A stretch of 64,000 nt of DNA, taken from Squalus acanthias. Its lineage: Eukaryota. The DNA is taken from positions 31,436,001 through 31,500,000 of the forward strand of contig CM059432.1 in the NCBI GenBank assembly GCA_030390025.1. Direction: 5' to 3'. Shown here piece by piece: positions 56,175-56,426 of this stretch. The position numbers were made by a program, and so were the translations under genes. Within the stretch, counting starts at the first letter, position 1. The number at the start of each line of letters is the position of its first letter. The notes below the pieces were generated by a model, which did not search any database, was not told the DNA's origin, and saw only the letters and a list, made by a program, of their open reading frames with translations.

Positions 56175-56426
56175 TAACAACAGAAAATGCTGGAAAAACT
56201 CAGCAGGCCAGGCAGCATCCGTGGAGAGAGAAACAGAGTTAACGTTTCAGGTCGAAGACCTTTCGTCAGAACTGGAAAAAAGCTTTTTTCCAGTTCTGAC
56301 GAAAGGTCTTCGACCTGAAACGTTAACTCTGTTTCTCTCTCCACGGATGCTGCCTGGCCTGCTGAGTTTTTCCAGCGTTTTCGGTTGTTATTTCGGATTT
56401 CCAGCATCCGCAGTATTTTGCTATCA
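56175..56426. mobile_element. Penelope P1 pLTR insertion forming a spacerless inverted duplication
   Basis: Arms 56175-56282 and 56283-56390 differ at about two positions. Flanking repeat TGATCATAA(T/C)GATA at 56161-56174 and 56427-56440. The sequence matches 46440-46550. Confidence 0.93.
56292..56328 (+). ncRNA. Minimal hammerhead ribozyme motif (mirror copy on minus at 56237-56273)
   Basis: AGTT-CTGACGA-A-AGGTC-TTC-GACCT-GAAACGTT-AACT. Confidence 0.72.

What the first reader, a model, noticed from the sequence alone, without database searches (positions are those of the whole stretch)
56175..56426. 216-bp spacerless palindrome with a hammerhead motif on each strand
Seen: two 108-bp arms fold back at AAAAAAG|CTTTTTT, differ at about two positions, and the unit is flanked by a 14-bp duplication. 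Each strand carries CUGACGA..GAAAC-GUU. Known: Penelope insertions often give inverted pLTRs. Inference: snap-back priming during integration. Any transcript through it forms a ~108-bp hairpin (Dicer/ADAR substrate, possible endo-siRNA source against the family) that would sequester its own ribozyme. The DNA could extrude a cruciform.
Basis: partly seen in the sequence, partly recalled or inferred. Interest (0 to 1): 0.7.

Follow-up and report, generated by a model that had tools for sequence, protein, structure and literature searches.

The report
Mirror-image stub of a Penelope retroelement
This is a real but ordinary hairpin-shaped insertion made of two head-to-head ends of a very common jumping gene in a shark-like genome; it appears to sit in an intron of a spliced RNA, but nothing shows that it has a function.

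Summary
The palindrome is real: two 109-bp arms (56174-56282, 56283-56391), 2 mismatches, no spacer, a 35-bp extension on the right arm and a 13/14 target duplication. A contig from another organism carries the exact empty site. The unit is the terminal-repeat end of a very abundant Penelope-like element (PLE). A sister copy in the window joins the same unit to a GIY-YIG/CCHH endonuclease stump whose relatives are Neptune/Nematis-type and come mostly from rays and skates where named. The 'hammerhead on each strand' is one minimal PLE hammerhead motif, mirrored. An inverted, truncated copy with a tail at one end is the published PLE signature, and this scan noted it before in other shark genomes. 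Both outer ends fall on the family's two recurrent 3' ends, and the centre lies on a 2-4-nt self-complementary spot. I therefore favour two target-primed cDNAs joined at their 3' ends (about 55%) over snap-back (about 35%). One contig spliced at GT-AG suggests that the palindrome lies in an intron, 135 nt before an acceptor. Folding predicts that the hairpin abolishes the ribozyme fold. Small RNAs, editing and cruciforms were not testable.

The parts
56161..56174 (+). left copy of the 14-bp target-site duplication
   Evidence: 13/14 identical to 56427-56440; present once in the empty site of organism B (X7 record 29)
56174..56282 (-). left arm: inverted, 5'-truncated PLE terminal repeat ending at the family's 'no-tail' 3' end
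   Evidence: loose ends at 56174 in 121/92/219 contigs of runs X2/X5/X7
56237..56273 (-). minimal type I hammerhead motif, mirror copy (core starts 56269, predicted cut after 56241)
   Evidence: descriptor hit
56281..56284 (.). fold-back centre AG|CT; the parent sequence has GC or AGCT here
   Evidence: sister copy 46439-46447; loose-end consensus of X7 behind 56283 and X6 before 56285
56283..56391 (+). right arm: direct, 5'-truncated PLE terminal repeat
   Evidence: 91.8% identical over 110 bp to 46441-46550
56292..56328 (+). minimal type I hammerhead motif: helix I 4 bp (56292-95/56325-28), core 56296-56302, one unpaired A, helix II 5 bp (56304-08/56312-16), GAAA-CG-UU, predicted cut after 56324
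   Evidence: compared with the min-HHR features in PMC4209133
56392..56426 (+). 35-bp PLE 'tail', on one end only
   Evidence: similar sequence in the old copy 4956-5007; loose ends at 56422 in 104/77/127/17 contigs of X2/X5/X7/X6
56427..56440 (+). right copy of the target-site duplication
56562..56694 (+). exon of a spliced host transcript; its acceptor AG (56560-61) lies 135 nt after the insertion
   Evidence: X6 record 22 maps 56562-56693 and 56932-57200 with 0 differences; the join equals GT(56695)..AG(56932) splicing
45759..46552 (+). sister copy (794 bp) that links the same unit to a PLE GIY-YIG/CCHH C-terminus (45761-46148, frameshift near 45941); own 13/14 duplication 45745-58/46553-66 inside a DDE_Tnp_4 transposon

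Best explanation
The unit is one recent insertion of an endonuclease-bearing Penelope-like retrotransposon (Neptune/Nematis type), cut down to two head-to-head terminal-repeat stubs. Most likely course (inferred): the element's GIY-YIG nicks both target strands 14 nt apart. Each 3'-OH primes reverse transcription on uncleaved element RNA, one at the 'tail' start site and one at the start site about 35 nt inside it. Both cDNAs stop early, and their 3' ends pair through the self-complementary GC/AGCT just upstream of the hammerhead. Fill-in gives a spacerless palindrome with a tail on one side only. The copy is probably inert. It seems to be read as intronic pre-mRNA, in which the 109-bp stem replaces the ribozyme fold. 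Confidence is about 0.9 for the identity and about 0.55 for the two-cDNA step.
For: Shown: an empty site in organism B, where one 596-nt contig joins 56161 to 56428 with no letters between, i.e. 252 + 14 bp absent. The same unit follows a GIY-YIG stump at 45761-46148 (Pfam E 5e-4, below the curated cut-off; 53 homologues among 54 candidates, the four named chondrichthyan hits near the top at 72-75% identity). A C-x4-C-x-T-C linker is present in 15 of the 19 homologues that reach far enough upstream, of 53. 35,674/22,503/48,939 contigs of three DNA-type runs were laid on the 1.8 kb, with summed depth 10^5 times the flanks over the unit. Both outer ends lie on family-wide ends. The arms share 7 differences against the sister copy and differ from each other at 2, so they had the same or a near-identical template. 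13 of the 15 listed joints (of 460) are skips across the centre, read here as inverted junctions of other copies; their fold points differ, asymmetry is 1-87 nt, and 7 of 13 have 2-5 nt of microhomology. Both arms keep the hammerhead intact and the centre lies 42 nt upstream of the predicted cut, so self-cleavage did not set it. Literature: a lizard PLE nicks and extends both strands, starts at two sites that bound the tail, uses unprocessed RNA and is predicted to be a dimer (PMC11167929).
Against: No read or contig was shown to span this locus's centre. The two-cDNA step is inferred; asymmetric centres with microhomology fit snap-back equally well, and 11 of the 13 listed joints have asymmetry of 3 nt or more. 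Most joints are marked 'between: not known', and 445 were not shown. An ATT motif, the lizard enzyme's preferred cut, sits at the no-tail end, so that end could be an endonuclease cut after snap-back. No RT of this family was found in the window, so the clade call rests on the linker motif of homologues. The transcript rests on one contig from a run only guessed to be RNA, and its first 434 nt were not placed.
Confidence: 0.85

Rival explanations
1. Same element, but the mirror arm arose by snap-back: one cDNA folded on its own 3' end, copied itself, and was joined to the second nick at the no-tail site (first reader; akin to the self-priming idea of Arkhipova et al. 2013).
For: The arms share 7 differences against the sister copy, as one template would give. 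Palindromes at inverted PLE junctions were read as self-priming in PMC3846280. Most listed family joints have asymmetry that could be a loop. ATT lies at the no-tail end.
Against: A zero-spacer centre needs a 2-nt loop or later repair (own knowledge: hairpin loops usually need 3 nt or more). Folding of the sister copy's antisense strand gives no 3'-terminal hairpin at any of 10 stop points around the centre. One listed joint, seen in two runs, has asymmetry 1. The stop at the no-tail end needs an extra step.
Confidence: 0.35
2. The palindrome is a self-propagating non-autonomous unit (MITE-like or retrozyme-like) that moves whole.
For: It has terminal inverted arms and a TSD, and some other inverted junctions recur in 2-3 runs at depths of 100-240.
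Against: Fold points vary widely among the listed joints. The three other copies in the window are not palindromic. Retrozymes are head-to-tail tandems of type I hammerheads (10.64898/2026.07.22.740005). The stem would block the ribozyme.
Confidence: 0.07
3. The hairpin has been co-opted: it yields siRNAs or edited RNA that restrain the family, or it tunes splicing of the host transcript.
For: Probably intronic, 135 nt before a used acceptor; very stable stem. PLEs give small RNAs in rotifer and fly (PMC3846280).
Against: The insertion is absent in a related organism whose flanks differ at only 13 of 596 positions, so it is young and not conserved. Its 2 arm mismatches are what that age predicts (inference). 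No host protein domain was found in 104 + strand frames, and the downstream exon overlaps a decayed transposase-like frame.
Confidence: 0.05
4. The palindrome is a fold-back artefact of library making or assembly.
For: No listed piece spans the centre, and the window differs from the laid runs at 56527 and 56918.
Against: Both outer junctions appear in short-read contigs with the element ends facing outwards. The arms differ at 2 sites, only one has a tail, and a TSD plus an exact empty site bound the unit.
Confidence: 0.04

Closest known systems
Complex insertions of EN+ Penelope-like elements: inverted 5'-truncated pLTR plus 30-40-bp tail (PMC3846280, PMC8557442)
   Same: Head-to-head arrangement, palindrome at the inverted junction, tail at one end only (35 bp here), TSD around the whole unit, solo pLTR stubs.
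   Different: Here both copies are cut to 109 and 144 bp, so the whole insertion is the palindrome. The TSD is 14 bp against the 8-10 bp reported in the rotifer.
PAc, Poseidon-type PLE of Anolis carolinensis (PMC11167929)
   Same: Two 3' ends that bound a tail; hammerhead in the terminal repeat; uncleaved RNA used as template.
   Different: Homologues of this family carry the CX2-5CxxC linker of Neptune/Nematis, which Poseidon lacks (PMC8557442). No activity was tested here.
Minimal hammerheads of metazoan PLEs (PMC4209133)
   Same: Conserved core, 4-bp helix I, unpaired base between 9 and 10.1, palindromic 15.2-16.2, no helix III; that paper also notes pairs on opposite strands 100-700 bp apart.
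   Different: Helix II is 5 bp (7-8 in the schistosome consensus) and closes with A-U rather than the usual G-C. The two cores are only 27 bp apart.
Non-LTR retrozymes (10.64898/2026.07.22.740005)
   Same: Non-coding, PLE-derived, hammerhead-bearing repeats; reported in the one chondrichthyan sampled.
   Different: Retrozymes are head-to-tail tandems; this is a head-to-head pair with one motif per strand.

Membership tests
EN+ Penelope-like element insertion | Terminal repeat linked to an ORF with C-terminal GIY-YIG endonuclease | tested here: met
   Sister copy 45759-46552 joins the same unit to a GIY-YIG stump; the focal copy itself has no such ORF
EN+ Penelope-like element insertion | CCHH motif with two cysteines between GIY and YIG | tested here: met
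   C-x2-C before YIG and two histidines after, across a frameshift; definition in PMC8557442
EN+ Penelope-like element insertion | Telomerase-like RT upstream of the endonuclease | tested here: inconclusive
   Not in the window's truncated copies; homologues P0034 and P0052 carry RVT_1 then GIY-YIG; no tree built
EN+ Penelope-like element insertion | 30-40-bp tail at one end; direct or inverted pLTR | tested here: met
   35-bp tail on the right arm; two family-wide ends at 56174 (mirror of 56391) and 56422-25
EN+ Penelope-like element insertion | Target-site duplication with an empty site | tested here: met
   13/14 TSD; empty site in organism B
Neptune/Nematis clades | CX2-5CxxC linker before the endonuclease | tested here: inconclusive
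   Present in 15 of 19 readable homologues; the window's copy starts at the last cysteine, and Neptune versus Nematis needs an RT tree
Minimal type I hammerhead (min-HHR) | Core CUGANGA and GAAA-UH with helices I and II, palindromic 15.2-16.2 | tested here: met
   Descriptor hits, 0 in 50 shuffles; helix II probability 0.98 or more but helix I only 0.02-0.04 in the lone arm
Minimal type I hammerhead (min-HHR) | Self-cleavage, as a dimer or with protein help | not testable with these tools
   Needs an in vitro assay
Rfam hammerhead families | Covariance-model match | tested here: not met
   No hammerhead family at gathering score in the window or at E up to 10 in the region, the lone arm or the sister copy
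Non-LTR retrozyme | Head-to-tail tandem units, each with a type I hammerhead | tested here: not met
   Head-to-head pair, one motif per strand
miRNA precursor | Family-level match | tested here: not met
   All miRNA hits are below gathering score and reflect the perfect stem

The most novel reading that the evidence does not exclude
Zero-spacer PLE palindromes are the footprint of two-strand target-primed reverse transcription by a PLE dimer, closed by pairing of the two cDNA ends. In sharks and rays this reaction scatters many perfect hairpins into introns, and these supply endogenous double-stranded RNA that is edited or diced and restrains the family; this locus, 135 nt before a used acceptor, is one such source.
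Probability: 0.15. Interest if true: 0.55.

Novelty: new member of a known kind. Interest (0 to 1): 0.22.

Why it matters
As a single locus it matters little: it is one of very many stubs of an abundant retroelement, in a published arrangement. Its value is as a clean test case. It has a proven empty site, both family ends, a datable young age and a zero-spacer centre. How PLEs make their inverted structures is still called open (PMC8557442), and counting centre asymmetry against tail side over many such stubs could decide between snap-back and two-cDNA joining. If intronic copies yield edited or diced RNA, they would be a self-made brake on the family.

Tried and rejected
No whole genome is held for this window, so copy counts and a survey of fold points were not possible. 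A 33-nt family motif found 0 loci in viral and prokaryotic genome contigs, and a 31-nt version found 0 in metagenome contigs. Rfam gave no hammerhead match; its miRNA hits are stem artefacts. No RNA holder is listed as such; X6 is only guessed to be RNA. A-to-I editing could not be read: thousands of paralogous contigs cover the arms, and contigs drop rare variants. No host gene was identified: of 104 + strand frames scanned (out of 122 listed; most of the rest were scanned), only 2 hit Pfam, both LINE domains. Rejected: hammerhead cleavage as the cause of the fold point (cut site 42 nt away, motif intact). Rejected: arm-to-arm gene conversion as needed to explain the clean inner 94 bp (2 mismatches fit the age; both lying in the outer 15 bp is a post-hoc pattern). 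Heterozygosity in run X5 (left flank depth about 10, right about 19, contig starting at 56428) could not be resolved. Five paper searches showed no paper on this family in cartilaginous fishes; subscription journals and Repbase/Dfam were not searchable, so this is not proof of absence. No supplements were read.

Full report
Observation. The palindrome is as described. From the centre 56282|56283 the arms pair for 109 bp with two mismatches (pairs 95 and 101) and no spacer. The folding z-score is -29, and no other perfect arm in the window exceeds 15 bp. The right arm runs on for 35 bases (56392-56426). A 14-bp duplication, 13/14 identical, bounds the unit. A minimal-hammerhead descriptor hits once per strand inside it and never in 50 shuffled windows. 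The second hit is only the mirror of the first.

It is a real, recent insertion. No genome is held, so I laid contigs of four public runs on 55400-57200. In organism A, contigs cross the left junction in two studies and the right junction in one, by 12, 24 and 26 bases, which is less than the tool's 31-base rule. In organism B, one 596-nt contig joins 56161 to 56428 with nothing between: the 252-bp insertion and one duplication copy are absent. That contig differs from the window at 13 positions, and the right arm keeps 8 CpGs in 144 bp (observed/expected 1.07 against 0.39 for the window), so the insertion is young. No listed piece spans the centre, so the exact centre is unconfirmed.

What it belongs to. 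Three more copies lie in the window. The one at 45759-46552 has its own 13/14 duplication inside a DDE_Tnp_4 transposon. It carries, upstream of the same unit, the end of a GIY-YIG frame with the PLE CCHH pattern and a frameshift near 45941. Its homologues (53 of 54 candidates) include ray and skate proteins at 72-75% identity, which points to a cartilaginous fish host (inference). Fifteen of the 19 homologues that reach far enough upstream have the C-x4-C-x-T-C linker, which marks Neptune and Nematis rather than Poseidon (PMC8557442, passages). The family is huge: 22,503-48,939 contigs per DNA-type run were laid, and summed depth over the unit is about 10^5 times that of the flanks. Loose ends pile up at 56174 and at 56422-25 (24 of 1,307 rows shown). 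These are the family's no-tail and tail 3' ends, and they are exactly the two outer ends of this insertion. Thirteen of the 15 joints shown (of 460) skip across the centre. I read them as inverted junctions of other copies, with different fold points, asymmetry of 1-87 nt and 2-5 nt of microhomology in 7. Inverted pairs are thus common in the family, and their centres vary.

What is published. An inverted 5'-truncated copy and a 30-40-bp tail at one end are described as typical of PLE insertions (PMC8557442, passages; PMC3846280, passages and Discussion). The latter reads junction palindromes as self-priming. Minimal hammerheads in pLTRs, including pairs on opposite strands, and their lack of monomer activity are in PMC4209133 (parts 1-2 of 4) and reviewed in PMC6765202 (passages). 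A purified lizard PLE nicks and extends both strands, starts at two sites that bound the tail and uses uncleaved RNA (PMC11167929, parts 1-2 of 4). Retrozymes are head-to-tail tandems (10.64898/2026.07.22.740005, part 1 of 5 and passages), which this is not. Earlier notes of this scan report the same structures in two other shark genomes; they are unchecked leads.

How it most likely formed (inferred). Each arm has the polarity of a cDNA primed from one of two nicks 14 nt apart, one from each family start site. The arms share 7 differences against the sister copy, so the templates were the same or nearly so. The parent sequence is self-complementary at the fold: GC in the sister copy and in one loose-end consensus, AGCT in another. 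Two cDNA ends pairing there give a zero-spacer centre directly. A snap-back needs a 2-nt loop or later repair, and folding found no 3'-terminal hairpin at 10 stop points. Against this, 11 of 13 listed joints have asymmetry of 3 nt or more, which fits either model, and an ATT at the no-tail end allows an endonuclease cut after snap-back. I put two-cDNA joining at about 0.55 and snap-back at about 0.35. Ribozyme cleavage did not set the centre: the predicted cut is 42 nt downstream and both motifs are whole.

Does it do anything? One contig of run X6 maps to 56562-56693 and 56932-57200 with no differences, and the join equals GT-AG splicing on the + strand. Its first 434 nt are not placed, and X6 has no cover at 55522-56131 or 56437-56558. 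The upstream exon therefore probably lies further left, which makes the palindrome intronic, 135 nt before the acceptor. The downstream exon overlaps a decayed frame 68% identical to a coelacanth DUF4371 protein, a domain I recall as hAT-transposase-associated. No host protein gene was found. In such a pre-mRNA the stem wins: helix II pairing falls from 0.98 to 0.00, and forcing the hammerhead fold costs 64 kcal/mol, against 5 in the lone arm. Since this motif type hardly cleaves alone, little is lost. Small RNAs, editing and cruciforms could not be tested. The insertion's absence in a close relative gives no sign of conserved function.

Verdict. It is a new member of a known kind, interest 0.22. 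Its best use is as one clean data point for the open question of how PLEs build inverted ends.

Noticed in passing
window 56283-56294: Many family copies begin at 56293-56294 (loose ends in 36 and 31 contigs of X2 and X5; 6 of 13 listed inverted joints have one arm starting at unit position 12-15). This is right after a pyrimidine run and CAG that look like a splice acceptor at the 5' edge of hammerhead helix I, where the Drosophila virilis Penelope intron ends (PMC4209133). The focal copy extends 11 nt further, as an unspliced template would.
   Followed up: partly
window 20176-20262: 87-bp stub of the same family inside a LINE RT frame, with a duplication of about 13-15 bp that overlaps the element's first bases.
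   Followed up: partly
window 12796-12838 (- strand): A second, different minimal hammerhead motif (helix I 3 bp, GAAA-GC-UU), probably the end of another PLE family.
   Followed up: no
window 56562-57700: Spliced + strand transcript (intron 56695-56932) whose second exon runs into a decayed DUF4371-type frame; possibly a non-coding or transposon-derived RNA.
   Followed up: partly
window 56332-56347: A second acceptor-like pyrimidine run ends in CAG before an ATG in the sister copies but in CGG in both arms here; the two letters each hold about half of the family depth, so this is a common variant.
   Followed up: partly
window 55438-55473: One unit of a 34-36-bp tandem repeat that is very abundant in all four runs ('goes back 34/36' joints, high depth).
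   Followed up: no
window 56071-56500: In run X5 the left flank has depth about 10 and the right about 19, and a contig starts at 56428; the individual may be heterozygous near the insertion.
   Followed up: partly
window 56527 and 56918: The window has A where the laid runs that cover these sites have T: another allele or a base error in the assembly.
   Followed up: no
window 1-2800, 41000-49800, 61800-64000: Several decayed copies of a DDE_Tnp_4 (Harbinger-type, name recalled) transposon, and many LINE RT fragments; about 35% of the window matches itself.
   Followed up: no
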